Shown piece after piece: positions 1-12,009 of a stretch of 12,009 bases of DNA; the stretch's first letter is position 1; each line of letters starts with the position of its first letter. Below the pieces are notes generated by a model. The model did no database searches. It was not told the DNA's origin and worked only from the letters and a program-made list of their open reading frames with translations. The translations under genes were made by a program, and so were the position numbers. Source of the DNA: a virus (taxonomy: Duplodnaviria > Heunggongvirae > Uroviricota > Caudoviricetes); the IMG/VR virus record IMGVR_UViG_2537562173_000012. The stretch is one strand, 5' to 3'.

Positions 1-180
1 AACCTGACGAGAGACGTCACCAAGGCAAGCCCAAAGCTTTCGATTCTGGTCTAAGCTGCGGTTGCGTTCCTGAATGGTTACTACGATTGGTTTGGTTGGG
101 TCTGGAAGGATTTGCTGTACTGCGTGAATAGCGTTTTGCTGATGTGCCGGAGATCGAATTTCAAAGGTTAGTTTTTTCAT
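1..180 (-). CDS. ninB: NinB-like recombination protein, N-terminal part (gene runs off the window start)
   Basis: Minus-strand ATG at 178-180 with a GAGGGAAG Shine-Dalgarno just upstream. Translation MKKLTFEIRSPAHQQNAIHAVQQILPDPTKPIVVTIQERNRSLDQNRKLWACLGDVSRQV is open to position 1 and matches my recollection of the lambda NinB N-terminus. Confidence 0.8.
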   Translation of the reverse strand, partial: MKKLTFEIRSPAHQQNAIHAVQQILPDPTKPIVVTIQERNRSLDQNRKLWACLGDVSRQV

Positions 181-385
181 GACTTCCCTCTCTAACAGAT
201 TTCAGGTTATTCCACTCCGTTACCGCACTGCGATAATTCGCGGCCACCACAGCAGCGTGGTTAGCGCAGTAGATTTGGCACCCGTTCTCCATGTCGAATA
301 TTGTCGGTGATTTTCCGCATTTACATTTTTTGGCACGCGGTGCGTCTGAACACATTCCGTTAACGGTGTCCATCAGGATCACCAT
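161..385 (-). CDS. Hypothetical small Cys-rich protein between helicase and ninB (NinA position)
   Basis: 74-aa ORF in the track with five Cys (C-x8-C-x-C ... C-x3-C), suggesting a possible zinc-binding fold. Its end overlaps the ninB start. Start is ambiguous (ATG 385 or ATG 373) and the SD is weak. Confidence 0.45.
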   Translation of the reverse strand: MVILMDTVNGMCSDAPRAKKCKCGKSPTIFDMENGCQIYCANHAAVVAANYRSAVTEWNNLKSVREGSHEKTNL

Positions 386-400
386 CGTTCTTAATCCAAT

Positions 401-428
401 AAAAAAGGGCTACTGTGTAAATAGCCCC
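401..428 (-). terminator. Candidate intrinsic terminator downstream of the helicase gene
   Basis: On the minus-strand transcript GGGCUA / UAGCCC form a 6-bp stem with a roughly 9-nt loop, followed by a U-run (plus-strand AAAAAA at 401-406). Lies between the helicase stop (455) and the next ORF. Confidence 0.4.
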
Positions 429-454
429 TGTTATTAGCTCAGTGACGTAGATGG

Positions 455-1831
455 TCATACGTCCGCCCCTTGTGCATATCGTCTGCCACGCGCAGCAGGC
501 GCATTTGATGCTGTGCAAATCTGTCTGGCTTCATCCTGGTCACATGCAACAAAGTGTCCGTTGCAGAACCGCTGGTAAACCGTACCAAGTGAGCCAAAAC
601 GGTTTTTCGTCACAATGATTTCAGCAAATGGCGCGGCGCTACTGTTCTCGTCATATACCGCTTCCCGATAGAGCATGATGATTGAGTCTGCGTCCTGTTC
701 AATGCTTCCTGAATCACGCAAATCTGCGTTTGTCGGGCGTTTGTTTGGTCGCTTCTCAACATCGCGTGAAAGCTGACTTAGGGAGATAACAGGCGTTTTC
801 AGGTCTTTCGCCATCGCCTTAAGGCTTCCTGAGATGTGGGCAATTGCGAGGTCGTTGCGATCTGCTTTCGGCTTCTCAATCAGGCCAAGATAATCCGCCA
901 TGATGAGTGACAGGTTTGGATTTTCCTGTTTGTGTCGTTCTGCGATTGAGCGTATTTCTTCGACCGATAACCGCGAGGCATCGACTACCCATACATCCAA
1001 ATCTGCAAGCTGACTCATGCCGTTAGCAACACGCGCCCAGCCTTCGTCATCCATCGATGCAGGATTTCGCAGTACGCTAACCGACATCCTCCCGGCGTTG
1101 GCAATGCTTCGCTCTGCAATCTGCAATGCGCTCATTTCCATTGAGAAAATCAATACCCCGCGCCGGACGTCAGAACCAGGAATAACGCGGCTTGCAACGC
1201 CTTCGGCAATCTTCAGCGCCAGCTCGGTTTTCCCCATACCAGGACGAGCAGCGATTATCACCAGGTCTTCTGCGTTCATCCCTCCGGTGATGGCATCAAG
1301 TTCTTCGATTCCGGTCTTCAGGGTATCGGACTCTTCTCCGTTCCTCAGACGCCTGTCAAGCGTGTCAGTGTAGTCAGTAATGATTTCCCCTAACCGTACA
1401 GGTTTAACCTCGTCACGGGGCTTTCTGATGGCTGAAAGACGCTTTACAAGCTCATCCATCGCCTGACTCGATGCGTCGATGGTTCCGCTCTGAATTGGTT
1501 CACGCATTTCATCCATGATTTCCAGCACCAGACGGCGGTGATAGTTATCCGCGACCATTCCGGCATATCCCTTCAGGTTTGCGGCACTCGGGCAGTTTTT
1601 GCTGGTCATCAGGATTGCGGTGAAATGCTCCTCTCCGCACGCCTCGGCAACCATCAGCGCGTCGATTAGGTTTCTGTTTCTCGCCTGCTTGCGAATAACC
1701 TCGAAGGCTTTCCGGTAGAGCGGAATTGAAAACGCTTCCGGCTCCAGCGTTGCAAGAACGTCACTGGCGGTTGGAGTTAATCCACCAATCAGCAGGCCAC
1801 CGATAACGCTCGCTTCGATATCCTGTCTCAT
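455..1831 (-). CDS. DnaB-family replicative DNA helicase (phage P22 gene 12-like)
   Basis: 458-aa ORF with a Walker A-like GMGKT motif and overall DnaB-like C-terminal ATPase layout. Start ATG overlaps the stop of the upstream O-like gene (ATGA). Same length as the P22 gp12 helicase as I remember it. Confidence 0.9.
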
Positions 1832-2658
1832 GCAATCCCCCTGTCTGCAAACTTCCCTTCCCGAACTCCCGTTAACGAGTCTTCTCTCAGCAGGTAATCA
1901 AAATCAGCCGTCCAGCCCGTGTCGTTGTCTCCGAAGTAAAACGGCTTGGCCTGATGCACAAACGCCCTGACATACGCTCTGAAACCGTCCACATTTGGCG
2001 TTTTCAGTTGTGGGATGATTTTCTTCAGGCGGCGTTTGCGCTTCTCGTTGACCGCAACAGCGTGTGGCAGTCTGTCACCGACTTCGGTGTTGTAGGCGTT
2101 CAGGAAGGATTCATAGTCGATTCGTTCTGCCTTGCGACGTTCAGGTTTAACCTGCCCATCGCCGCCCCCGTTAGGGGGTAAGGGGGTATTTGTATTTATT
2201 GTCTTTTGTATATTGTCTTTTGTGTTTGACTGATTCGGTAAATTGCTTTTTACCGATTTGGTGAAGGTTTGTTTTACCGAATTGGTAAATGTTTTACCGA
2301 ATCCGTTAACTTTCGTTTTCCACTCGGAAATGTTTGTATTCATACCAACTTGACGCCCCACCTGAATGAGAACTCCCATTCTGATAAGCTCGTTTTTGGC
2401 GGTAGAGCATTTGGTTGGTGCCATGCCAGTGAGTTCAGCGAACTGTTCGTTTCCGATCCAATCTATTTTTTTGTTGTAACCGTATGTCTTGCGCCACACA
2501 GCCATAACAATCAGTAACTGATGTGCAGTAAGCCCAGAAAGCATGGCGGCTTCTAACAGTGTGTTTGCAGTCCGAGTGTAGCCATCTTCGAGTTCTGCCA
2601 CGCGATGCTCCACGACCTCCAGTTGAGGCCTGTAATCAGCTAACTTAACGACGCCCAT
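1828..2658 (-). CDS. Replication initiator, lambda O / P22 gp18-like
   Basis: 276-aa ORF with AGGAG SD 6 nt before the ATG at 2656-2658. N-terminal region resembles lambda O (DGYTR..N.LLEA motif). The central linker is encoded by the iteron repeats, and a repeat-encoded [15 protein letters not shown] is visible in the protein. Confidence 0.85.
2173..2300. repeat. Origin of replication: iterons embedded in the O-like gene
   Basis: Tandem AGGGGGTA x2 (2173-2188), TATTGTCTTTTGT x2 (about 2197-2223), and three TTTTACCGA copies (2248-2256, 2272-2280, 2292-2300) interleaved with inverted TCGGTAAA / TTGGTAAA copies. This is the classic lambdoid ori arrangement inside the initiator gene. Confidence 0.7.
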
Positions 2659-2806
2659 GTTTCACTCCTGCTTTTGCTAGTCTGTAAACACCAACAAGGC
2701 GCTCTGCGAACGCCCTGTTATTTGCTGCGGCTACCACTAATCCCTCAGGTGAATCAGGGTGTCGAATCTCTTCTTTTTCCTGGTATTTCTTACGACGTTT
2801 TGTCAT
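2645..2806 (-). CDS. Hypothetical small basic protein between cII and the O-like gene
   Basis: 53-aa ORF ([53 protein letters not shown]) not in the ORF track because it is under 60 aa. AGGAG SD 5 nt before the ATG at 2804-2806; its 3' end overlaps the O-like start by 14 nt. Confidence 0.4.
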   Translation of the reverse strand: MTKRRKKYQEKEEIRHPDSPEGLVVAAANNRAFAERLVGVYRLAKAGVKHGRR

Positions 2807-2838
2807 AATGACTCCTGTGGATTGATCCAGTAATTCCC

Positions 2839-3135
2839 TCAGAATTGCATATCAATTTGCTCAGAATCCTCGGTGGCAGCCGGGGATTTTTTCTTTGTGA
2901 TTCCATCCAATGCATACTTAAAAGCCCTGCTAATCGGACTGATGTCTGATGCCATTCCGAAAGCACACAAGACCGAAGCAATAAATCTCCAGTCCGTTCT
3001 GCTTATCTTCGATTCATGACAGCCAATCATCTTTGCCAGACCGCGCTGGGTAAGCGTTGACAGGTTGATGAGTAAATCAGTTTCTGCGCGATCAATTTCT
3101 CGCTGTGTTGGCTTGCTGTAACTTGCTTGTGTCAT
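2839..3135 (-). CDS. cII: CII-like transcriptional activator
   Basis: 98-aa ORF with a helix-turn-helix region and a C-terminus KKSPAATEDSEQIDMQF that parallels lambda CII (RPAATERSEQIQMEF from memory). Sits immediately downstream of cro as in lambda, but the sequence is clearly diverged from lambda CII. Confidence 0.85.
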   Translation of the reverse strand: MTQASYSKPTQREIDRAETDLLINLSTLTQRGLAKMIGCHESKISRTDWRFIASVLCAFGMASDISPISRAFKYALDGITKKKSPAATEDSEQIDMQF

Positions 3136-3145
3136 TTCTTAATAT
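3113..3145 (+). promoter_or_regulatory. PRE-like CII-dependent promoter (TTGC-N6-TTGC) directed toward cI
   Basis: TTGC at 3113-3116 and 3123-3126 separated by 6 nt, inside the first codons of cII. A TAATAT -10-like hexamer follows 17 nt after the inter-repeat hexamer. This is the lambda PRE layout. Confidence 0.5.
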
Positions 3146-3220
3146 TTCCAATAGTGAATAGTTAGTTGAAAGGTATGCGTGGAAACGCATATGGCCTTAG
3201 TTGGTCAGATATATTGGGAC

Positions 3221-3235
3221 TCGCTTTGTCAGCGA
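3221..3235 (-). promoter_or_regulatory. nutR boxB hairpin (GACAA loop)
   Basis: Minus-strand RNA reads UCGCU GACAA AGCGA (5-bp stem, 5-nt loop), between cro and cII. It has the same loop and the same CUACG 5' flank as the hairpin downstream of PL. Confidence 0.6.
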
Positions 3236-3273
3236 CGTAGGACGAATGTCCATTGTGAAAATAGCGGTGTTAC

Positions 3274-3483
<210 letters not shown>

Positions 3484-3498
3484 TTAGTACATGCAACC

Positions 3499-3567
3499 AT
3501 TATCACCGCCAGAGGTAAAATAGTCAACACGCACGGTGTTAGATATTTATCCCTTGCGGTGATAGAT
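3499..3567. promoter_or_regulatory. OR1-OR2-OR3 operators with divergent PR (minus) and PRM (plus)
   Basis: OR1 TATCACCGCCAGAGGTA at 3501-3517, OR2 3525-3541 and OR3 3548-3564 are the lambda 17-bp operator sequences. PR -10 GATAAT and -35 TTGACT read on the minus strand (plus coordinates 3499-3504 and 3522-3527). PRM -35 TAGATA (3540-3545) and -10 TAGATT (3562-3567) give a leaderless cI mRNA starting at the ATG at 3575. Confidence 0.9.
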
Positions 3568-3571
3568 TTAA

Positions 3572-4288
<717 letters not shown>

Positions 4289-4295
4289 CACGTAA

Positions 4296-4733
4296 ATGAT
4301 TAAAGAACGTATTTCTTATATCATTCCGATTGCGATGGATGAAGGCAACCCAGTAACTCCAGTTCTTATCTATGAAATGGATAAAGACTCCCATGAAGTG
4401 GATCTATCATTTGGCGCTTTTTTTATCGGCCTTAAGGCTACAAAAAAATATTCCATAGGCATTGAGGTTTTCAATGCTCAAGAAATACCGATACCAATTG
4501 ACACAAAACTGTACTCCAACCATAAGTTTTTTACGGTAGCAGAAGCCAACGATGGAGAAACCATCGTATCAACTTCTATGAGAATTAACTTCCCAAGGGT
4601 GAAAATTATCAAGCCTGGGATATTCGAAGTTAGAGCATCACTGGTTAATCCTGATAAAGGCGAAGTAATTGATGTAAAAAGTTCGTTTTTTGACGTGAAG
4701 ATAACAGGATCAGTTCGCGATGAGTTTAGATAA
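4296..4733 (+). CDS. Hypothetical protein, first gene of a cassette in the rexA/rexB position
   Basis: 145-aa ORF starting 8 nt after the cI stop on the same strand, with no obvious SD (possible coupling to cI). It does not resemble RexA, no catalytic motif was recognised, and the stretch looks more A+T-rich than its neighbours by eye. Confidence 0.6.
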   Translation: MIKERISYIIPIAMDEGNPVTPVLIYEMDKDSHEVDLSFGAFFIGLKATKKYSIGIEVFNAQEIPIPIDTKLYSNHKFFTVAEANDGETIVSTSMRINFPRVKIIKPGIFEVRASLVNPDKGEVIDVKSSFFDVKITGSVRDEFR

Positions 4734-4839
4734 CAAGGTTGCTCAGCTTCGTCCAAATCAAAACATATCTCGCCCAATTGGACACTATTCCACTGATGAT
4801 GCATACTCACGGCATGGTGGAGGAAACGGCGGAGGTAAC

Positions 4840-5091
4840 ATGCTTGAGGCTAGAGTTGCAAAGCTAGAGTCTGATGTTGAATACATCAAGCGCGATCTCG
4901 CTGAAGTAAAGTCAGATATAAAATCTGTAGATTCTCGTCTGTCAGGTATTGAGACAAGCATTAGCTCAGCAAAAATCACCATCAAGGCATCTGCGGTCGT
5001 TGTCAGTTTCGTGTTCGCATTTTGCGCCTACATTTTTGGAAGTTATGTTTCCAAAATCCTTGATGCCTTAAACGGACTCGTTCTTAAGTAA
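4840..5091 (+). CDS. Hypothetical small membrane protein (coiled-coil plus C-terminal TM helix), second gene of the cassette
   Basis: GGAGG SD at 4831-4835 before the ATG at 4840 gives an 83-aa product. The same frame is open from ATG 4720, giving the 123-aa form in the ORF track. Heptad-like LEARVAKLESDVEYIKRDLAEVKSDIKSV is followed by a hydrophobic stretch AVVVSFVFAFCAYIFGSYV. A terminator follows directly. Confidence 0.55.
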   Translation: MLEARVAKLESDVEYIKRDLAEVKSDIKSVDSRLSGIETSISSAKITIKASAVVVSFVFAFCAYIFGSYVSKILDALNGLVLK

Positions 5092-5098
5092 CACACAA

Positions 5099-5124
5099 CC
5101 CGGCCTCAGCGCCGGGTTTTCTTT
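5099..5124 (+). terminator. Intrinsic terminator ending the cI-cassette transcript
   Basis: CCCGGC (5099-5104) pairs with GCCGGG (5111-5116) around a 6-nt loop, followed by TTTTCTTT. Confidence 0.7.
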
Positions 5125-5281
5125 ACCTCACGATCCCCTTCACCCAATAACACATAACCAATTGTATTTATTTGAAAATTAATAGATACAACTCACTAAA
5201 CATCGCAATTCAGATCTCTCGATCACCTCCCAAGCCACACACCCCTGCAAAAAAATAAATCTATATAAAAAACATACAGAT

Positions 5282-5344
5282 AACCATCTGCGGTGATAAA
5301 TTATCTCTGGCGGTGTTGACATAAATACCACTGGCGGTGATACT
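5282..5344 (+). promoter_or_regulatory. OL3-OL2-OL1 operators and the PL promoter
   Basis: OL3 at 5282-5298, OL2 at 5302-5318 and OL1 at 5326-5342 match the lambda operator consensus. PL -35 TTGACA (5316-5321) and -10 GATACT (5339-5344) are 17 bp apart. Confidence 0.9.
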
Positions 5345-5412
5345 AAACACATCAGCAGGACGCACTACTCACCAGTGCGGTGAATATACAACGATTCAAG
5401 CAAGAATCTACG

Positions 5413-5427
5413 GCGCTGACAAAGCGC
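5413..5427 (+). promoter_or_regulatory. nutL boxB hairpin (GACAA loop, P22 type)
   Basis: GCGCT GACAA AGCGC is a perfect 5-bp stem with a 5-nt loop, about 70 nt downstream of PL. It matches the P22-type boxB I recall and differs from the lambda GAAGA/GAAAA loop. Confidence 0.6.
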
Positions 5428-5592
5428 AATAACCAAAGTGAACTTTGGGGTGTGGTGAAGGATTCATGGACGGGAATATGTCGCACGTAAAGCGGCGAGG
5501 CCTGCGGGACTATTGCCGAATTGAAGTAGGCCGAAACAGGTCGAAATGGGTCTCCCACCTACCACACCACCAAAGTTCATCAGGAGGTCTAT

Positions 5593-5976
5593 ATGACACG
5601 CAGAACTCAGTTCAAAGGCAATTCACGTTCTCGTCGTCGTGAGCGTTTAAAGGCAAAGGCATTAGCTAACGGCGTACTGGCCCGCGAAGAAGCAATAAGT
5701 TCAGAAGTATTACACCGCCCTACTCTAAGCAGAGCGCAGATTCAGGCTAAAGGTACTCACGAAACGCCTGAGCGCATAGAAGACGCTAAGCCAATTAAGT
5801 TCATAGCACAGGACGTGATCTGGCAACAGAAAGAATACAGACGCAATCTGGAGCGAGCGGCCATTGTGTACGCGAATGAGTTTGGACATAAGCAACCAGA
5901 AACTGGTGTATGTCTTCCAAACGTAGCCATTTACGCGGCAGGCTACCGGAAATCAAAACAACTGACGGCGAGGTAA
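5593..5976 (+). CDS. N: N-like transcription antitermination protein (P22 gp24-like arginine-rich motif)
   Basis: 127-aa ORF with AGGAGG SD 5 nt before the ATG. N-terminal arginine-rich motif NSRSRRRERLKAKALA. First gene downstream of PL and nutL. C-terminus VAIYAAGYRKSKQLTAR resembles what I recall of P22 N. Confidence 0.8.
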   Translation: MTRRTQFKGNSRSRRRERLKAKALANGVLAREEAISSEVLHRPTLSRAQIQAKGTHETPERIEDAKPIKFIAQDVIWQQKEYRRNLERAAIVYANEFGHKQPETGVCLPNVAIYAAGYRKSKQLTAR

Positions 5977-5978
5977 TT

Positions 5979-6371
5979 ATGGGTCAGGAAGAAAAATATG
6001 AGCTTAAAAAGCTCATTGGAGAAGACGCCATAGAAGAAATTGCAGCATTAACAACAGCTATAAAGAATATTAGGTATGCGCTAAATACGCTTATCTCCTC
6101 ATGCGACAAAAATAGCAGGGAATTTTTGATACTTGGCGCAGCTCTAGGAATAGTTGATGCGGCAACGCTTCACCTAATTACTCATGACGATATTCTTATT
6201 GAGCCGTATGAAACATTACTGCTTGTCAGGCAAAAAATGGCTGATGCCGCAGCAAATGGAGACCTTCAACTTTACATCGACTTAAGGAAAGTATTAAGGC
6301 GAATGGTCAGAACTGAAGGAGATATCCCCCTGAACGATGCTAAACAAGGCATACAAGCAAAGCTGGAATGA
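5979..6371 (+). CDS. Hypothetical protein (accessory gene downstream of N)
   Basis: 131-aa ORF from the ATG at 5979, 2 nt after the N stop, with a GAGGT SD. The ORF track shows an upstream TTG-initiated extension that I consider unlikely. Confidence 0.6.
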   Translation: MGQEEKYELKKLIGEDAIEEIAALTTAIKNIRYALNTLISSCDKNSREFLILGAALGIVDAATLHLITHDDILIEPYETLLLVRQKMADAAANGDLQLYIDLRKVLRRMVRTEGDIPLNDAKQGIQAKLE

Positions 6372-6430
6372 CCTTATCCTGATGAAGTATCGAAAGCACA
6401 GTCAGCAATTAGCAAAGCTCTTGGGGAAGA

Positions 6431-6592
6431 ATGATGAATAAGAAATACATTGTTGAAGTTATAGATCGAGAAACGAAAGAAGTAATTAAACATTTCGAAT
6501 TTGATAATTATAGAAAAGCTGACCGCGTCGAAGAAGGATTGTTGCGACAAAGTAATCTCGAAAAATTTTATGTTGTCATGCGATGCGAATAA
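6431..6592 (+). CDS. Hypothetical small protein
   Basis: 53-aa ORF (MMNKKYIVEVIDRETKEVIKHFEFDNYRKADRVEEGLLRQSNLEKFYVVMRCE) with a GGGGAAG SD. It is below the track's length cutoff. Confidence 0.45.
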   Translation: MMNKKYIVEVIDRETKEVIKHFEFDNYRKADRVEEGLLRQSNLEKFYVVMRCE

Positions 6593-6724
6593 GCGCCTAT
6601 AGCAGATTTACGAGTCTGCTATGTGAGCAATGTCGCTCGTAACTAAACAGGAGCCGACTTGTTCTGATTATTGGAAATCTTCTTTGCCCTCCAGTGTGAG
6701 GGCGATTTTTTTAACGGAGGAAAT

Positions 6725-7693
6725 ATGAGTGAAGTAACAGATTTAGTTGTTATTGAAAAAGCAAATGCAATGACTGTATTTCAGTCTGCCGACCAGATTG
6801 AAGAAATCCTTCAAAAGGTTGAACGTGAAGTTATGTCCTTTGTTCCTGATATCACAACGGCAAGGGGCAGAAAGGAGATCGCTTCTCTGGCGTATAAAGT
6901 TGCGCAGACGAAAACATATCTCGATGGTCTTGGCAAAGACCTTGTTGCTGAACTGAAGGAAATTCCAAAGCTAATTGATGCTAACCGCAAGACAGTGCGT
7001 GATCGCCTTGATGAGCTGAAAGCCAAGGCGCGCCAGCCTCTTACTGATTATGAGGAGGAGCAGGCACGGATTAAAGCCGAAGAAGAAGCTAAGGCAGCAG
7101 CCGAAGCTCTCGCAAAGCAAATTGAGTCTGACCATGAAATAGCGATTTTGATGGATCGCGAATTTGACCGCCAAAGAGAAGAGGCAAGACTCAAAGCGGA
7201 GCAGGAAAAGCGAGAGCATGAAGAACGCTTAAAAAGAGAAGCTGAAGAGAAAGCCAGAGCAGAAGCCGAAGCAAAGGCAAAAGCCGAAATTGAAGCAGCA
7301 GCAAGGCGAGAAGCAGAAGCTAAGGCCGCAGCGGAACGTGCAGAGCGTGAACGCATTGAAGCCGAGCAACGAGCACAGCGCGAAGCAAAAGAGGCAGCAG
7401 AACGAGCTGAAAGAGAAAAGCAGGCAGCAATTGAAGCAGAACGCCGAAAAGCACAGGAGGAGGCAGAACGAATCCGGCGCGAGGCTGAAGCAAAAGAGCA
7501 AGCCAGAATAGCAGAAGAAAAAAGAATCAAGGACGAAGAAGAGCGTAGAGCAAAGGATAAAGCTCACCGGAAAGAAGTAAATAACAAAATACTTGCTGAC
7601 CTTATCAAGGTTGGTGCATCAGAAGATGTTGCTAAAAATATCATAACAGCCATCGTAAAAGGCGAAGTATTCGCAACAAAAATAACCTACTAA
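6725..7693 (+). CDS. Hypothetical protein with a long E/K/A/R-rich coiled-coil central domain (TolA domain II-like composition)
   Basis: GGAGG SD 5 nt before the ATG at 6725; 322 aa. Residues about 110-290 are almost entirely Glu, Lys, Ala and Arg in EAEAKAKAE-type repeats, flanked by ordinary N- and C-terminal domains. Confidence 0.75.
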   Translation: MSEVTDLVVIEKANAMTVFQSADQIEEILQKVEREVMSFVPDITTARGRKEIASLAYKVAQTKTYLDGLGKDLVAELKEIPKLIDANRKTVRDRLDELKAKARQPLTDYEEEQARIKAEEEAKAAAEALAKQIESDHEIAILMDREFDRQREEARLKAEQEKREHEERLKREAEEKARAEAEAKAKAEIEAAARREAEAKAAAERAERERIEAEQRAQREAKEAAERAEREKQAAIEAERRKAQEEAERIRREAEAKEQARIAEEKRIKDEEERRAKDKAHRKEVNNKILADLIKVGASEDVAKNIITAIVKGEVFATKITY

Positions 7694-7717
7694 TAAAACC
7701 AACATAAGGAACCACCC

Positions 7718-7849
7718 ATGATTTACGCAATCGCGGGAGGCGCTCGCATGGGTGCCTTCCAACTAAATGAATCTTTACTTGAACGAATCACCCGTAAATT
7801 ACGTGACGGATGGAAAAGAGTTGAGGTCTTATTATGCGCAATGAAATAG
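7718..7849 (+). CDS. cIII: CIII-like protein (FtsH inhibitor that stabilises CII)
   Basis: 43-aa ORF with an AAGGA SD. Its core ESLLERITRKLRDGWKR matches the conserved amphipathic helix of lambda CIII as I recall it. Confidence 0.7.
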   Translation: MIYAIAGGARMGAFQLNESLLERITRKLRDGWKRVEVLLCAMK

Positions 7850-7986
7850 CCATCAATCACCAGATGCTTCGTGCAGCGCAAAACAAAGCAGTAATAGCCA
7901 GATTTATTGGTGATTCAAAAATGTGGCTTGAAGCAAATAAAGCGATGAAATCAGCTATCAACCTTCCGTGGTATCGCAGGAAATGA
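7834..7986 (+). CDS. kil: Kil-like small protein (host cell-division inhibitor family)
   Basis: 50-aa ORF with a GAGG SD, overlapping the cIII 3' end by 16 nt, in the position of kil. It contains ARFIGDSKMWLEA, which resembles the lambda Kil motif I recall. The call is tentative. Confidence 0.5.
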   Translation: MRNEIAINHQMLRAAQNKAVIARFIGDSKMWLEANKAMKSAINLPWYRRK

Positions 7987-8061
7987 GTTTTACAGATAAC
8001 TGGTCAGACGAAGAATTCATTCGTCAGATGAAAGAATTAATCGGTAACGAAGGAGATATTC

Positions 8062-8232
8062 ATGTCACTTGCAACCACAGTGAAGGAGAGCAAGTTACAG
8101 AGACGCATGTACACGCAGAAAGCTCTCTGGTATCGCCATAATGGTGACCGCGAAGGAATGCGGGTATGCCTTAATTTGTCCCGAGTCGAAGTATTAAATC
8201 AGCGTTATTTCCTTGGGCCGTGTCCATTCTGA
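8062..8232 (+). CDS. Hypothetical small basic protein upstream of erf (Arf position)
   Basis: 56-aa ORF with a strong AAGGAG SD 6 nt before the ATG at 8062; stop 10 nt before the erf start. A competing ORF at 7983-8141 in another frame overlaps it. Confidence 0.35.
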   Translation: MSLATTVKESKLQRRMYTQKALWYRHNGDREGMRVCLNLSRVEVLNQRYFLGPCPF

Positions 8233-8242
8233 GAACAATCAT

Positions 8243-8848
8243 ATGAGCAAAGAATTTTACGCAAGACTGGCAGCTATTCAGGAGAATCTGAACGCGCCAA
8301 AGAATCAGTACAACTCATTCGGCAAATATAAATACAGAAGCTGCGAAGATATTCTTGAAGGCGTTAAGCCGTTACTGAATGGTCTGTTTTTATCAATCAG
8401 CGATGAAGTTGTGTTGATTGGTGATCGGTATTACGTGAAAGCCACGGCAACTATTACCGATGGTGAAAACAGTCATACGGCAACCGCTCTTGCACGAGAG
8501 GAAGAAAGCAAGAAAGGAATGGATTCTGCACAAGTTACGGGAGCTACAAGCTCTTATGCACGCAAGTATTGCCTCAATGGTTTGTTCGGCATTGATGATG
8601 CGAAAGATGCAGATACCGACGAGCATAAACATCAGCAGAACGCAGCAGCAAAGCAATCAAAACCATCACCTACACCTGAACAGGTTCTAAAAGCATTCAC
8701 TGACGCAGCATTGCAGAAAAACACCGTAGAAGAGCTTAAACAGGCGTTCGCCAAAGCGTGGAAGATGCTCGAAGGCACACCGGAGCAGCACAAAGCGCAG
8801 GACGTTTACAACATCAGACGAGACGAATTAGAAGGAGCGGCTGCTTAA
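8243..8848 (+). CDS. erf: Erf-family single-strand annealing recombinase (P22 Erf-like)
   Basis: 201-aa ORF. N-terminus [45 protein letters not shown] matches my recollection of P22 Erf. The TTG-initiated extension in the ORF track was rejected. Confidence 0.85.
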
Positions 8849-9297
8849 TGGCACATTCGATTACTGTAAGACTAAACAAGCCCGCAAGAGAGTTTCAGTA
8901 CGGGGAAAATATCGGATTCAACATCCGTGCTGGCGTTCAGTATTACGATCGCCAGACAAAAAAGAAAGAATGGACAAACTACAGCGCCGTTGTATTTGCC
9001 AAGCCGGGAGCGCAAGCGGATTACTATCGTAGCGTTCTGGTTGAAGGAGGCATTGTAGAAATTACCGGAGAAAACATCAGGGTTGATGTTTATCAGGGGC
9101 AAAATGGTCAATCAATCACTCTTGAATTACTGAAGCTGGCGCTGCGTGAAGAGCTGAAAGATGAGCTGGAAATCGTAATGCGCGTCTATTTTGAAAAGCC
9201 GCGTACCACGGTGGGCTGGAAAGGGCTGATTAACGATCCGCATATGGATAACAGCTTCCAGATCAACGACGGTCTGCGTATCGGAGGTGCTGGATAA
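8848..9297 (+). CDS. Putative OB-fold ssDNA-binding (SSB-like) protein
   Basis: 149-aa ORF coupled to erf (TAATG overlap) with a GAAGGAG SD. The pattern [33 protein letters not shown]...QGQNGQ resembles the SSB OB-fold signature. It lies directly after the recombinase. Confidence 0.5.
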
Positions 9298-9322
9298 ATT
9301 CAGAAAAAACTACGATCGAATA

Positions 9323-9520
9323 ATGTCTCTACCGCAGGAAACGAAAGAGGAAAAGGAATTTCGCCACTGTATATGGCTTGCAGAGAAAGAAGAACGCGAG
9401 CGAATTTACCAGACATCAATCCGACCATTCCGCAAAGCCACATATACCCACTTCCCTGAATATATCGACCCGCGCCTGCGTAATTACCGCTCACGCTATG
9501 GCGCTATCAGTAATGACTGA
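9323..9520 (+). CDS. Hypothetical small protein
   Basis: Frame open from GTG 9287 (the track's start), but the SD there abuts the start codon. The first ATG is at 9323 and has no clear SD. Weak initiation signals either way. Confidence 0.35.
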   Translation: MSLPQETKEEKEFRHCIWLAEKEERERIYQTSIRPFRKATYTHFPEYIDPRLRNYRSRYGAISND

Positions 9521-9614
9521 GGAATTTACCATGAGAGGACTTGCTTAAGAGAAAGAGTTTCGGTTCTGTTAATGACAACAAATATCTGAATGCGATGTGG
9601 CGGAGTGGGAAGAA

Positions 9615-10076
9615 ATGAAACAAATGTCACTAATTGAGATGGATGGTTTTCTGAAAGGTAAATGCATCCCAAGTGATTTAAAGGTTAACGAAACAAACGC
9701 TGAATACCTTGTCCGTAAGTTCGGTGAACTTGAATCAAAACTGGAAACGGCGTTGCGGGAGTGTAGTTCTGCTGGAATCACGATTGATAACCTTGAGGCT
9801 AAATGCGCGAAGATGGCTGCTGAAAATACCTCACTTAAGCAATCTGAGAAGGAATTTAATGACTTTTGTCGTGAGGAGTTTAGCGAATGGGAAGATGATG
9901 TTACTGAAACCCCAGCCACCGACGCATTCCTGGCTGAAATTGAACGCAAAGCAATCCGAAAGTTCATTAACAGCATTGAACACATCCTGCGTGACAAGCT
10001 GTCTCCGTATGACACCGAAGAGATGCTTGAGGCTATGCGTATTTTTCTGGAAGAACAGGGAGGCGAGCAAAAATGA
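9615..10076 (+). CDS. Hypothetical acidic protein
   Basis: 153 aa from the ATG at 9615 with a GGAG SD; the track's GTG 9597 start is less likely. Coiled-coil-like and rich in Glu/Asp. Confidence 0.6.
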   Translation: MKQMSLIEMDGFLKGKCIPSDLKVNETNAEYLVRKFGELESKLETALRECSSAGITIDNLEAKCAKMAAENTSLKQSEKEFNDFCREEFSEWEDDVTETPATDAFLAEIERKAIRKFINSIEHILRDKLSPYDTEEMLEAMRIFLEEQGGEQK

Positions 10077-10390
10077 CGATCACAAAACAACGTGTAGAAG
10101 AAATCATATCCCGCATTGAAATGTATGGGCATGGTGCAGGGTATACCGCTGACGAGGTTTATGACCTAGCTGTACTGGCGCTGAATTTATCAAATATCGC
10201 AAACCTCAAGCGATACGAGCTTGATATGGATGGTTGTGACTCGTTCGGTCAGGATTGTGGCGCTGACATGACTGAAGATTCTGATGGCGATTATGTCCTG
10301 TTTGATGACGTGGTTAAGTTGTTTGAGTTTGATACAACCACTCAGAAGTTCGAAAGCCCAGCAAAGGAGGCAGCCAGTGAGCAAGATTGA
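10073..10390 (+). CDS. Hypothetical highly acidic small protein
   Basis: 105 aa; ATG overlaps the upstream stop (ATGA) with a GGGAGG SD. The C-terminal half is very Asp/Glu-rich (DMDGCDSFGQDCGADMTEDSDGDYVLFDD). Confidence 0.6.
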   Translation: MTITKQRVEEIISRIEMYGHGAGYTADEVYDLAVLALNLSNIANLKRYELDMDGCDSFGQDCGADMTEDSDGDYVLFDDVVKLFEFDTTTQKFESPAKEAASEQD

Positions 10391-10949
10391 CTATCAGGCA
10401 CTGCGTGAGGCGGCGGAACGTGCAATTCCAGCAATGGAACGCCTGTTAATGTTGCCAGTTGATGATGATTTGTTAAGTGAACAGGAACTTAAGGATTACG
10501 GTGTGGATATTGATGCGCTCAACGCCTTCAAATTTCTGACCGGACCAGAAACCGTGCTGGCGCTGCTGGATGAACGGGAAAGAAACCAGCAATACATCAA
10601 ACGCCGCGACCAGGAGAACGAGGAAATTGCGCTAACGGTAGGGAAGCTGCGCGTTGAGCTGGAAGCTGCAGAGAAGCGCATTGCAGAACTGGAAGCCGAA
10701 CCTGTAAGCCAAACTTACAAGTTGAACGAGCTGTCGGGCAACTATCCGGTAACTCCGGATGGTTGGATAAGCTGTAGTGAGCGAATGCCCGCTCAAGATG
10801 ATTGGATTTTAATTTATTCAAAGCACGGCGAGTATATGGCAGGACAGGTACAAGGGGAATACGTGGAGTTGAGCGACGGCACTTTATCGTGGTTAGGGAA
10901 CGCCTTGTACTGGATGCCTCTACCGGAACCGCCGCAGGAGGTTAATTGA
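10377..10949 (+). CDS. Hypothetical protein with a DUF551-like C-terminal domain
   Basis: GTG start at 10377 with an AAGGAGG SD 6 nt upstream; 190 aa. The track's ATG at 10284 lacks an SD and overlaps the previous gene. C-terminal W.PLPEPP-type ending (LYWMPLPEPPQEV) is typical of phage DUF551 proteins as I recall; a central coiled-coil is present. Confidence 0.55.
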   Translation: MSKIDYQALREAAERAIPAMERLLMLPVDDDLLSEQELKDYGVDIDALNAFKFLTGPETVLALLDERERNQQYIKRRDQENEEIALTVGKLRVELEAAEKRIAELEAEPVSQTYKLNELSGNYPVTPDGWISCSERMPAQDDWILIYSKHGEYMAGQVQGEYVELSDGTLSWLGNALYWMPLPEPPQEVN

Positions 10950-11143
10950 TGGTCTCCTTCGCGAAATATACGATTATTGACTGGATAGCATTCATTCAGG
11001 TTTTGCTCATCTGGTTTTATATGGCTTACAGGAGTGGACAGTGGATTGTCAGTGTAGCCTGTAGCAATGGATGGCGTTGGTGGAACCGAAAGAATAAAAA
11101 AAGCGCTGGCCTTGGCTTCGTTTTACGAAGCATTCAATCTTAA
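10949..11143 (+). CDS. Hypothetical small membrane protein
   Basis: AGGAGG SD 7-8 nt before the ATG at 10949, which overlaps the upstream stop (TGATG). 64 aa with one strongly hydrophobic segment IIDWIAFIQVLLIWFYMAY and a basic tail. Confidence 0.5.
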   Translation: MVSFAKYTIIDWIAFIQVLLIWFYMAYRSGQWIVSVACSNGWRWWNRKNKKSAGLGFVLRSIQS

Positions 11144-11226
11144 CAGTCTTCAGCCTGGTTCTGTCGTTGTAGTCACCACTCAAAGCGGCATGACGATACA
11201 AATTCACAAGCCAAAGGAGGAAGGTC

Positions 11227-11511
11227 GTGGCTAACCTGCAACTTGCCGTTAAAGGTGAATACTTCGATGCCATGATTCGCGGAGAGAAAACGGAAGAGTA
11301 TCGCCTGTGTAATGACTACTGGAATAAGCGAATTATGTTCCGCGAGTATGACCGCCTGATTATCACAAAGGGATATCCGAAGCGCGACGATTCCAGCCGC
11401 AGAATTGACGTCCCGTATGACGGATATGAAATCAAGACAATCACACATCCGCACTTCGGCGATAAACCGGTAAAGGTGTTCGCTATAAAGGTGAATATCG
11501 ACAATGAATGA
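11227..11511 (+). CDS. Hypothetical protein, possibly ASCH/PUA-like
   Basis: GTG start with an AGGAGG SD 6 nt upstream; 94 aa. The N-terminal pattern L.LAVKGEYFDAMIRGEKTEEYR resembles ASCH-domain openings. The functional call is weak. Confidence 0.5.
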   Translation: MANLQLAVKGEYFDAMIRGEKTEEYRLCNDYWNKRIMFREYDRLIITKGYPKRDDSSRRIDVPYDGYEIKTITHPHFGDKPVKVFAIKVNIDNE

Positions 11512-11583
11512 TAATCCTCGCACTCGCGGGGATTTCTTTTATCTGAACTCGCTACGGCGGGTTTTGTTTTATGGAGATGATAA

Positions 11584-11751
11584 ATGCACTTCCGAGTCAC
11601 AGGTGAATGGAATGGAGAGCCATTCAACAGAGTTATCGAAGCAGAGAACATCAACGACTGCTATGACCACTGGATGCTGTGGGCGCAGATAGCACATGCA
11701 GACGTAACTAATATTCGAATTGAAGAACTGAAAGAACACCAAGCCGCCTGA
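11584..11751 (+). CDS. Hypothetical small protein
   Basis: 55-aa ORF (MHFRVTGEWNGEPFNRVIEAENINDCYDHWMLWAQIAHADVTNIRIEELKEHQAA) with a GGAGA SD 6 nt upstream. Its stop lies inside the terminator stem. Preferred over the overlapping track ORF 11504-11692, which lacks an SD. Confidence 0.4.
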   Translation: MHFRVTGEWNGEPFNRVIEAENINDCYDHWMLWAQIAHADVTNIRIEELKEHQAA

Positions 11752-11764
11752 TGGCGGTTTTTTA
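11743..11764 (+). terminator. Intrinsic terminator upstream of the excisionase-like gene
   Basis: CCGCC (11744-11748) pairs with GGCGG (11753-11757) around a 4-nt loop, followed by TTTTTT. Confidence 0.6.
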
Positions 11765-11808
11765 TTGCCTGATTTGCAGGTTCGATTCCCTATTCGGAGA
11801 TAGCACTC

Positions 11809-12009
11809 ATGCAACACGAACTACAACCTGATTCACTGGTTGATTTGAAATTCATCATGGCCGATACTGGCTTCGGTAAAACCTTCATCTATGACCGGAT
11901 TAAGTCCGGCGACCTGCCAAAAGCCAAAGTTATCCACGGGCGAGCAAGATGGTTATATCGTGACCATTGTGAATTCAAAAATAAGCTCTTAAGCCGCGCC
12001 AATGGGTAA
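11809..12009 (+). CDS. xis: Excisionase-like small DNA-binding protein (not lambda-Xis type)
   Basis: 66-aa ORF with a GGAGA SD. It is the last gene of the PL-direction operon, and its stop is the last base of the window. Small basic protein with an HTH-like segment; it does not match lambda Xis as I recall it. The call rests mainly on position and size. Confidence 0.5.
   Translation: MQHELQPDSLVDLKFIMADTGFGKTFIYDRIKSGDLPKAKVIHGRARWLYRDHCEFKNKLLSRANG

What the first reader, a model, noticed from the sequence alone, without database searches (positions are those of the whole stretch)
3100..3150. CII-box (TTGC-N6-TTGC) inside the first codons of cII defines a PRE-like antisense promoter
TTGCTGTAACTTGC at 3113-3126 on the plus strand is the canonical CII recognition architecture flanking a -35 position, with a TAATAT -10 candidate 17 bp downstream, reading toward cro and cI in antisense. 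The site is retained although the CII protein is diverged from lambda, so the lysogeny-establishment circuit appears intact across the mosaic junction.
Basis: partly seen in the sequence, partly recalled or inferred. Interest (0 to 1): 0.35.

Follow-up and report, generated by a model that had tools for sequence, protein, structure and literature searches.

The report
Known CII-activated repressor-establishment promoter (PRE)
This is the ordinary, already annotated promoter that a lambda-like phage switches on with its CII protein to start making repressor and go dormant; it is correctly spotted but not new.

Summary
TTGCTGTAACTTGC lies at 3113-3126 (+), antisense to codons 4-8 of a full-length cII gene (2839-3135, -). 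TAATAT lies at 3140-3145, 17 bp after the central hexamer, and the promoter points through cro (antisense) into cI. The bare motif is no more than chance gives (1 found, 1.03 expected). The composite motif plus -10 is rare (0.01 expected). It also sits in the same register as lambda PRE: nt +10 of cII, then 13 nt to the -10, then TTCC. That register holds in all 80 close relatives examined and in most distant enterobacterial cII genes, although the N-terminal amino acids differ.

GenBank EF120460.1 (phage mEp234) annotates the homologous positions as "CII binding site at pRE", -35 and -10. X16093.1 (HK022) annotates the same element as pE/oE. The window is a mosaic: a lambda-type cI-OR-cro block (3260-4284, 98% to lambda) is joined at nutR boxA to an HK97/HK022/21/933W-type cII module. 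The promoter and its activator lie together on the cII side, and only the transcript crosses the junction. CII dependence of this exact sequence remains untested. Interest is low.

Seen in passing: a 147-bp piece identical to host aroG replaces phage DNA at 9135-9281.

The parts
3113..3116 (+). Distal (promoter-upstream) TTGC half-site of the CII box; complement of codon 7-8 nucleotides xGC-AAx
   Evidence: exact match. Invariant in 80/80 IMG/VR relatives. Present in the same register in 10 of the 12 other enteric cII genes compared, and one codon further in in ST-29.
3117..3122 (+). Hexamer TGTAAC at the -35 position (2/6 match to TTGACA by my reading), between the two half-sites
   Evidence: Annotated as minus_35_signal of pRE at the homologous mEp234 positions. 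The sigma-70 consensus scan does not call this promoter.
3123..3126 (+). Proximal TTGC half-site; complement of codon 4-5 nucleotides GCA-A
   Evidence: TTGC in 60/80 relatives and TTGT in 20/80, HK022 among the TTGT carriers.
3140..3145 (+). -10 hexamer candidate TAATAT (4/6 to TATAAT), lying between the cII Shine-Dalgarno complement (TTCC, 3146-3149) and the cII start codon complement (CAT, 3133-3135)
   Evidence: same 13-nt spacing as lambda AAGTAT. Annotated as minus_10_signal (putative) at the homologous mEp234 positions.
3150..3153 (+). Predicted PRE transcription start (inferred only)
   Evidence: Inferred from the alignment to lambda, with the lambda PRE start at lambda coordinate 38343 taken from my own knowledge. 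Not measured.
2839..3135 (-). cII gene, 98 aa, the presumed activator of this promoter
   Evidence: Pfam Phage_CII 5e-34, full length. Only PDB relative is lambda CII, 1xwr/1zpq/8igr, E 6e-6. 39% identical to lambda CII, 97% to HK97 CII.
3221..3235 (-). nutR boxB hairpin (TCGCTGACAAAGCGA on the - strand), crossed in antisense by the PRE transcript
   Evidence: Homologous mEp234 positions annotated as putative nutR boxB; sequence.
3258..3266 (-). nutR boxA; the lambda-type / HK97-type mosaic junction falls here
   Evidence: mEp234 annotation. Lambda homology starts at window 3260.
3274..3474 (-). cro (lambda type), transcribed in antisense by PRE
   Evidence: Pfam Cro 6e-35. Lies inside the 98% lambda block.
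3499..3527 (-). PR promoter (TTGACT-17-GATAAT), convergent with PRE
   Evidence: mEp234 annotation of pR/oR1-oR3.
3575..4288 (+). cI repressor (lambda type), the gene PRE is inferred to express
   Evidence: Pfam HTH_3 + Peptidase_S24. 98% nucleotide identity to lambda.
7718..7849 (+). cIII, a further component of the establishment circuit; protecting CII from FtsH is its known lambda role, not tested here
   Evidence: Pfam Lambda_CIII 4e-15.

Best explanation
Window 3113-3145 (+) is the repressor-establishment promoter PRE (called pE in HK022) of a mosaic lambdoid phage or prophage.

Proposed mechanism: early after infection the PR transcript (- strand) expresses cro and then cII. CII accumulates when FtsH is held back by CIII. 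A CII tetramer binds the two direct TTGC repeats that flank the poor -35 hexamer TGTAAC and recruits sigma-70 RNA polymerase to the TAATAT -10. Transcription starts near 3150-3153 and runs on the + strand, antisense through the cII leader, nutR and cro, into cI. This gives the burst of repressor that establishes lysogeny, and it also opposes rightward PR transcription.

Shown here: the sequence architecture, its register, its conservation and its homology to annotated pRE sites. Inferred from lambda and P22 biology: CII binding, activation, the start site and the physiological role.
For: 1. The motif and -10 are at the stated coordinates. The composite pattern is expected 0.01 times per window.
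2. The register matches lambda PRE: the box begins at nt +10 of cII, followed by 13 nt, a -10-like hexamer, then TTCC.
3. The homologous positions are annotated 'CII binding site at pRE', -35 and -10 in EF120460.1, and pE/oE in X16093.1.
4. The looser composite TTGC-N6-TTGY-N13-NANNNT occurs at the same place in all 80 IMG/VR relatives. It also occurs in lambda, HK97, HK022, mEp234, PhiR5_2, phiEt88, Midgardsormr38, Klebsiella RCIP0098, ST-29, ENT47670 and sal5.
5. The N-terminal peptides differ (ASYSK, ANKRN, AKYRK, AIKRN, TNHSK) while the nucleotides xCA-Axx-xxx-xGC-AAx persist. The constraint therefore acts on the DNA.
6. A full-length CII activator is encoded in cis, and cIII is present.
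7. The -35 is poor and the consensus scan does not call the promoter, as expected for an activator-dependent promoter. No terminator-like site lies on the + strand between 3146 and the cI start.
8. The same cII-PRE module is joined to at least 9 different cro-side sequences.
9. Published statements that lambda and P22-type CII/C1 recognise TTGC-N6-TTGC/T: PMC4651098, PMC2629481, PMC10345575.
Against: No experiment on this sequence or on this CII subtype was found in the searchable literature, so binding and activation are inferred by homology. The bare motif occurs at chance frequency in a 12-kb window. One fifth to one quarter of relatives carry TTGT in the proximal repeat. A few distant phages (S9-5, Klebsiella ST512, UAB_Phi20) have weaker boxes. 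The exact sequence requirement for this CII subtype is therefore not established.
Confidence: 0.9

Rival explanations
1. The TTGC-N6-TTGC is a chance occurrence with no promoter function.
For: One exact match is what shuffles give for 12 kb: mean 1.03, and 133 of 200 shuffles hold at least one. One-mismatch matches are fewer than expected, 10 against 18.7.
Against: The composite with the -10 is expected 0.01 times. It sits in exactly the lambda register. It is conserved at that place in 92 of the 97 fetched loci, which include distant CII families. It is annotated as pRE in homologous GenBank records.
Confidence: 0.02
2. The conserved nucleotides reflect constraints on cII itself (N-terminal amino acids, or the mRNA sequence needed for cII translation initiation) rather than a promoter on the other strand.
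For: The box overlaps codons 4-8, and the -10 overlaps the spacer between the cII Shine-Dalgarno and its ATG. In lambda, mutations here are reported to affect cII translation as well as CII binding; this comes from the title of Place et al. 1984 as listed in PMC4651098.
Against: Amino acids at codons 4-8 vary widely between families, while the eight nucleotides that spell the antisense TTGC repeats stay fixed. This includes the third position of codon 7, always C in AGC or CGC, and codon 4, always xCA. With E. coli codon usage recalled from memory, synonymous choice alone would give this pattern in only a few percent of cases for A-S-Y-S-K.
Confidence: 0.04
3. The site is a CII-dependent promoter, but its main role in this mosaic is interference with PR (antisense to cro, cII and nutR) rather than delivery of cI mRNA, for example if read-through into the lambda-type cI were inefficient across the junction.
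For: PRE and PR are convergent. The transcript must cross the nutR boxB/boxA region and a conserved hairpin at 3166-3192 before reaching lambda-type DNA.
Against: No terminator-like site lies on the + strand between 3146 and 3575. HK97, mEp234 and HK106, which are natural isolated phages, carry the same junction of this cII module to lambda-type cro-cI. The module works with at least 9 different cro-side sequences. This is an added role already described for lambda rather than a true alternative.
Confidence: 0.04

Closest known systems
pRE of phages mEp234 and HK106 (GenBank EF120460.1 / EF120461.1) and of HK97 (AF069529.1)
   Same: Homologous DNA: 97-98.6% identity over cII-cro-cI. The same junction of an HK022-type cII module to lambda-type cro-cI. 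In EF120460.1 the CII binding site, -35 and -10 are annotated at the positions that correspond to window 3113-3126, 3117-3122 and 3140-3145.
   Different: mEp234 has TTGT in the proximal repeat and TAAGAT as -10. HK97 has a 1-bp deletion that makes the -10 TAATTT. The window carries both TTGC repeats and the best -10 of the three (TAATAT). The HK97 record itself does not annotate the promoter.
pE / oE of phage HK022 (GenBank X16093.1)
   Same: CII is 96% identical. The same box position, with -35 and -10 annotated in the record.
   Different: HK022 has TTGCTGTAACTTGT and -10 TACTAT, and it is joined to a different immunity region (HK022 cI/cro).
Phage lambda PRE and CII (PDB 1xwr, 1zpq, 8igr)
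   Same: TTGC-N6-TTGC starting at nt +10 of cII on the antisense strand, then 13 nt to a weak -10, then TTCC, reading through cro into cI. The target cro-cI block is 98% identical to lambda.
   Different: CII is only 39% identical. The central hexamer is TGTAAC rather than GTTTGT, and the -10 is TAATAT rather than AAGTAT. The nutR boxB differs.
P22 C1-dependent PRE and related sites in epsilon34 and phi24B
   Same: [quoted passage not shown]
   Different: Different CII/C1 subfamily. In the P22-like sequences compared here the box is TTGC-N6-TTGT or weaker.

Membership tests
Lambdoid CII-dependent PRE promoter | Direct repeat TTGC-N6-TTGC flanking the -35 position | tested here: met
   Exact match at 3113-3126 (+).
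Lambdoid CII-dependent PRE promoter | Located antisense within the first codons of cII, in the lambda register (box starts at nt +10 of the ORF) | tested here: met
   Offset 9 (0-based) from the A of the ATG in the window, lambda, HK022, PhiR5_2, phiEt88, Midgardsormr38, RCIP0098 and sal5; codon table.
Lambdoid CII-dependent PRE promoter | Weak -35 and a -10-like hexamer 17 bp downstream of the central hexamer, so that the promoter is not a consensus sigma-70 promoter by itself | tested here: met
   TGTAAC, 17 bp, TAATAT. Not called by the consensus scan, which does find PR.
Lambdoid CII-dependent PRE promoter | Cognate CII-family activator encoded next to it | tested here: met
   PF05269 5e-34, full length. 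Lambda CII is the only PDB hit.
Lambdoid CII-dependent PRE promoter | Oriented to transcribe cro in antisense and cI in sense, without an intervening intrinsic terminator | tested here: met
   Gene order and strands. No + strand terminator-like site between 3146 and 3575.
Lambdoid CII-dependent PRE promoter | Sequence homology to a site already annotated as pRE/pE | tested here: met
   EF120460.1 and X16093.1 annotations and alignments.
Lambdoid CII-dependent PRE promoter | Transcription depends on CII, and CII protects the TTGC repeats | not testable with these tools
   Needs a reporter assay, footprinting or 5'-end mapping. No experimental paper on this CII subtype's PRE was found.
Phage_CII protein family (PF05269) | Full-length match above the curated cut-off | tested here: met
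   116.8 bits against a cut-off of 21.3, residues 1-92 on profile 1-91/91.

The most novel reading that the evidence does not exclude
The natural polymorphisms seen among phages that share this CII may be selected settings of PRE strength that tune lysogenisation frequency. These are the proximal repeat (TTGC in 60 of 80, TTGT in 20 of 80) and the -10 hexamer (TAATAT, TAATTT, TACTAT, TAAGAT, TACAAT). On this reading the window carries the strongest combination. Nothing here tests this; it is only not excluded.
Probability: 0.25. Interest if true: 0.2.

Novelty: already known. Interest (0 to 1): 0.08.

Why it matters
It matters little beyond correct annotation. It shows that the lysogeny-establishment circuit (cIII, cII, PRE, cI) of this mosaic phage is complete on sequence grounds. 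It also illustrates a known design principle of lambdoid mosaics: the activator gene and its target promoter overlap physically, so they are always exchanged together, and the module can drive whichever immunity region recombination places downstream. Here it is found joined to at least 9 different cro-side sequences.

Tried and rejected
- Other CII-dependent promoters (PI, PaQ) in the window: there is no second exact TTGC-N6-TTGC, and one-mismatch hits are below chance. The int and Q genes lie outside the window, so this says nothing either way.
- Sigma-70 consensus scan: it finds PR only, not PRE. That is expected for an activator-dependent promoter, so it does not count against the finding.
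- Rfam scan of the whole window at E <= 0.1: nothing. No curated RNA family covers the region or the oop-like RNA.
- Literature: the paper behind the EF120460 annotation, which I recall as Degnan et al. 2007, could not be retrieved by the DOI I recalled. A search for a paper on the HK022 early promoters found nothing. The annotation records themselves are therefore cited.
- Whole-window searches: no phage record and no complete E. coli genome holds 80% or more of the window, so the exact source could not be named.
- Chance and coding-constraint explanations were considered and rejected on the comparative data.

Full report
**1. What is in the sequence**

The window is the early region of a lambdoid phage, written in the opposite orientation to the lambda map.
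- On the - strand lie a DnaB-type P gene (455-1831), an O gene (1828-2658), a 53-aa ORF (2645-2806), cII (2839-3135) and cro (3274-3474).
- On the + strand lie cI (3575-4288), two unknown ORFs, N (5593-5976), cIII (7718-7849), kil, erf, an abc2 remnant and ea22-like genes.
- TTGCTGTAACTTGC lies at 3113-3126 (+) and is the only exact TTGC-N6-TTGC in the window.
- It is the complement of nt 10-23 of cII (codons 4-8: GCA AGT TAC AGC AAG).
- TAATAT lies at 3140-3145. That is 13 nt after the proximal TTGC and 17 bp after the central hexamer TGTAAC.

**2. Is it more than chance?**

The bare motif is not. Shuffles give 1.03 per window, and 133 of 200 shuffles contain at least one. With one mismatch allowed there are fewer matches than expected, 10 against 18.7.

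The evidence lies in the context.
- The composite TTGC-N6-TTGC-N13-TANNNT is expected 0.01 times per window and occurs in 3 of 200 shuffles.
- The site is in exactly the register of lambda PRE. In both phages the box starts at nt +10 of cII and is followed by 13 nt that include the complement of the start codon. A weak -10 follows (lambda AAGTAT, window TAATAT), then TTCC, which is the complement of the cII Shine-Dalgarno sequence.

**3. Comparative evidence**

Eighty IMG/VR loci encode CII proteins 91-100% identical to the window's.
- The distal TTGC is invariant in all 80.
- The proximal repeat is TTGC in 60 and TTGT in 20.
- The central hexamer and the flanks vary.

Twelve further enterobacterial cII genes were compared.
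- Seven have the box at the same offset with TTGC or TTGT as the proximal repeat: lambda, HK022, PhiR5_2, phiEt88, Midgardsormr38, Klebsiella RCIP0098 and Salmonella sal5.
- ENT47670 also has TTGC-N6-TTGT in that register by my reading of the table. One search did not scan it for the motif.
- ST-29 has the box one codon further in.
- S9-5 and Klebsiella ST512 have TTGA as the proximal repeat.
- UAB_Phi20 has a degraded distal repeat (TTTC).
- The more distant Pseudomonas phage PMG1 has no box in this register.

The encoded peptides differ (ASYSK, ANKRN, AKYRK, AIKRN, TNHSK, TSTRK), but the nucleotides xCA-Axx-xxx-xGC-AAx persist. The constraint is therefore on the DNA, not on the protein.

A looser composite pattern hits the same place in 92 of the 97 loci fetched.

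**4. It is already annotated**

The region 2600-3700 is 98.6% identical to phage HK97 and about 97% identical to mEp234 and HK106.
- GenBank EF120460.1 (mEp234) carries a 'CII binding site at pRE', a 'pRE: putative early repressor establishment promoter', a -35 and a -10. These map one-to-one onto window 3113-3126, 3117-3122 and 3140-3145.
- The HK022 record X16093.1 marks the same element as pE -10, pE -35 and two 'oE' sites. Its CII is 96% identical.
- Papers on epsilon34, E212 and phi24B state the TTGC-N6-TTGC/T rule for lambda CII and P22 C1. The phi24B paper notes a one-base variant at the same locations in phi24B.

**5. The mosaic**

Lambda-type DNA (98% identity) spans only window 3260-4284: cI, OR and cro, plus 14 bp beyond the cro stop. 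The boundary falls in nutR boxA (homologous mEp234 annotation).

Everything to the cII side is the type found in HK97, HK022, phage 21 and 933W. CII is 39% identical to lambda CII, and lambda CII is its only relative with a solved structure.

PRE and cII are therefore on the same side of the junction and overlap physically. What crosses the junction is the PRE transcript. The same cII-PRE module is found next to at least 9 different cro-side sequences, and natural phages (HK97, mEp234, HK106) carry this same joint.

**6. Mechanism**

Steps shown here:
- the box, the spacing, the poor -35 and a plausible -10;
- a full-length activator gene and cIII;
- no terminator-like site on the + strand between the promoter and cI;
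- convergent PR at 3527-3499.

Steps inferred from established lambda and P22 biology (my own knowledge: Shimatake & Rosenberg 1981; Ho, Wulff & Rosenberg 1983; Jain et al. 2005):
- a CII tetramer binds the two direct repeats on the face opposite RNA polymerase and recruits and activates sigma-70 holoenzyme;
- transcription starts about 7 nt after the -10 (about 3150-3153);
- the transcript reads antisense through nutR and cro and gives translatable cI mRNA;
- CII is limited by FtsH and protected by CIII.

**7. Verdict**

Novelty: already known. CII dependence of this particular sequence is untested but very likely (0.9).

**8. Things seen in passing**

An aroG patch:
- Window 9135-9281 (147 bp) is 100% identical to E. 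coli aroG.
- It replaces about 178 bp that CUS-3 has at this place. HK542, HK106 and Sf101 likewise align only in two pieces on either side of it.
- The patch removes the acidic C-terminal tail (…DDSIPF) of a small SSB-like protein and the first ~22 residues of Abc2.
- It creates an in-frame fusion ORF that hits Pfam DAHP_synth_1.
- No phage record and no complete E. coli genome spans the joints.

Other items:
- A terminator-like hairpin lies on the + strand inside the 3' end of cII (2863-2890), in a stretch 82% identical to the lambda cII 3' end and cII-O spacer. It looks like the oop antisense RNA.
- The ORFs in the rexAB position have no family hits.

Noticed in passing
window 9135-9281 (+), within ORF 8848-9297: A 147-bp stretch 100% identical to the host aroG gene (DAHP synthase) replaces about 178 bp of phage DNA present in CUS-3; HK542, HK106 and Sf101 also align only on either side of it. 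It deletes the C-terminal tail (…DDSIPF) of an SSB-like protein and the first ~22 residues of Abc2, and it makes an in-frame fusion ORF. No phage record or complete E. coli genome spans the joints. It could be a real illegitimate-recombination patch or an assembly chimera.
   Followed up: partly
window ~2818-2895 (+), terminator-like hairpin 2863-2890: An intrinsic-terminator-like hairpin with a T-run lies on the + strand inside the 3' end of cII. The stretch 2799-2900 is 82% identical to the lambda cII 3' end and cII-O spacer. It looks like the oop antisense RNA. There is no Rfam hit.
   Followed up: partly
L004-L083 positions 591-623 (-); window 3123-3126 and 3140-3145: Among 80 close relatives the proximal CII half-site is TTGC in 60 and TTGT in 20. 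The -10 varies (TAATAT, TAATTT through a 1-bp deletion as in HK97, TACTAT, TAAGAT, TACAAT, CACTAT). The distal TTGC never varies.
   Followed up: partly
window 3166-3192: A hairpin (GTATGCGT-GGAA-ACGCATAT) between the PRE start and nutR boxB is conserved in position, and partly in sequence, with lambda (GTATGCAAATAAATGCATAC), although the surrounding DNA is not lambda-like. It probably belongs to the tR1 / cII-leader region.
   Followed up: no
window 4296-4733 and 4720-5091 (+): Two overlapping ORFs (145 and 123 aa) sit between cI and N, where lambda has rexA/rexB. Neither has a Pfam hit, and PADLOC gives only one marginal hit (CorA-like, E 0.004) for the second. They may be a prophage-expressed exclusion or moron cassette.
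   Followed up: partly
L092 (phage UAB_Phi20) 483-520: This P22-like phage has TTTC instead of the distal TTGC at the PRE position. Its GenBank record notes for c2 'without recognition box for C1'. It is a natural example of a degraded CII/C1 box.
   Followed up: no
window 2645-2806 (-): A 53-aa ORF between cII and O, overlapping the O start, corresponds to HK97 gp53. A small ORF at the same position in HK022 is annotated 'orf48, well conserved in P22'. It has no Pfam family.
   Followed up: no
window 1-12009: No phage record and none of 5,426 complete E. coli genomes covers 80% or more of the window. The best matches (HK544, CUS-3, HK97, an E2348/69 prophage) cover 57-64% in 4-9 pieces. The window is therefore a mosaic combination not held in those collections.
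   Followed up: partly
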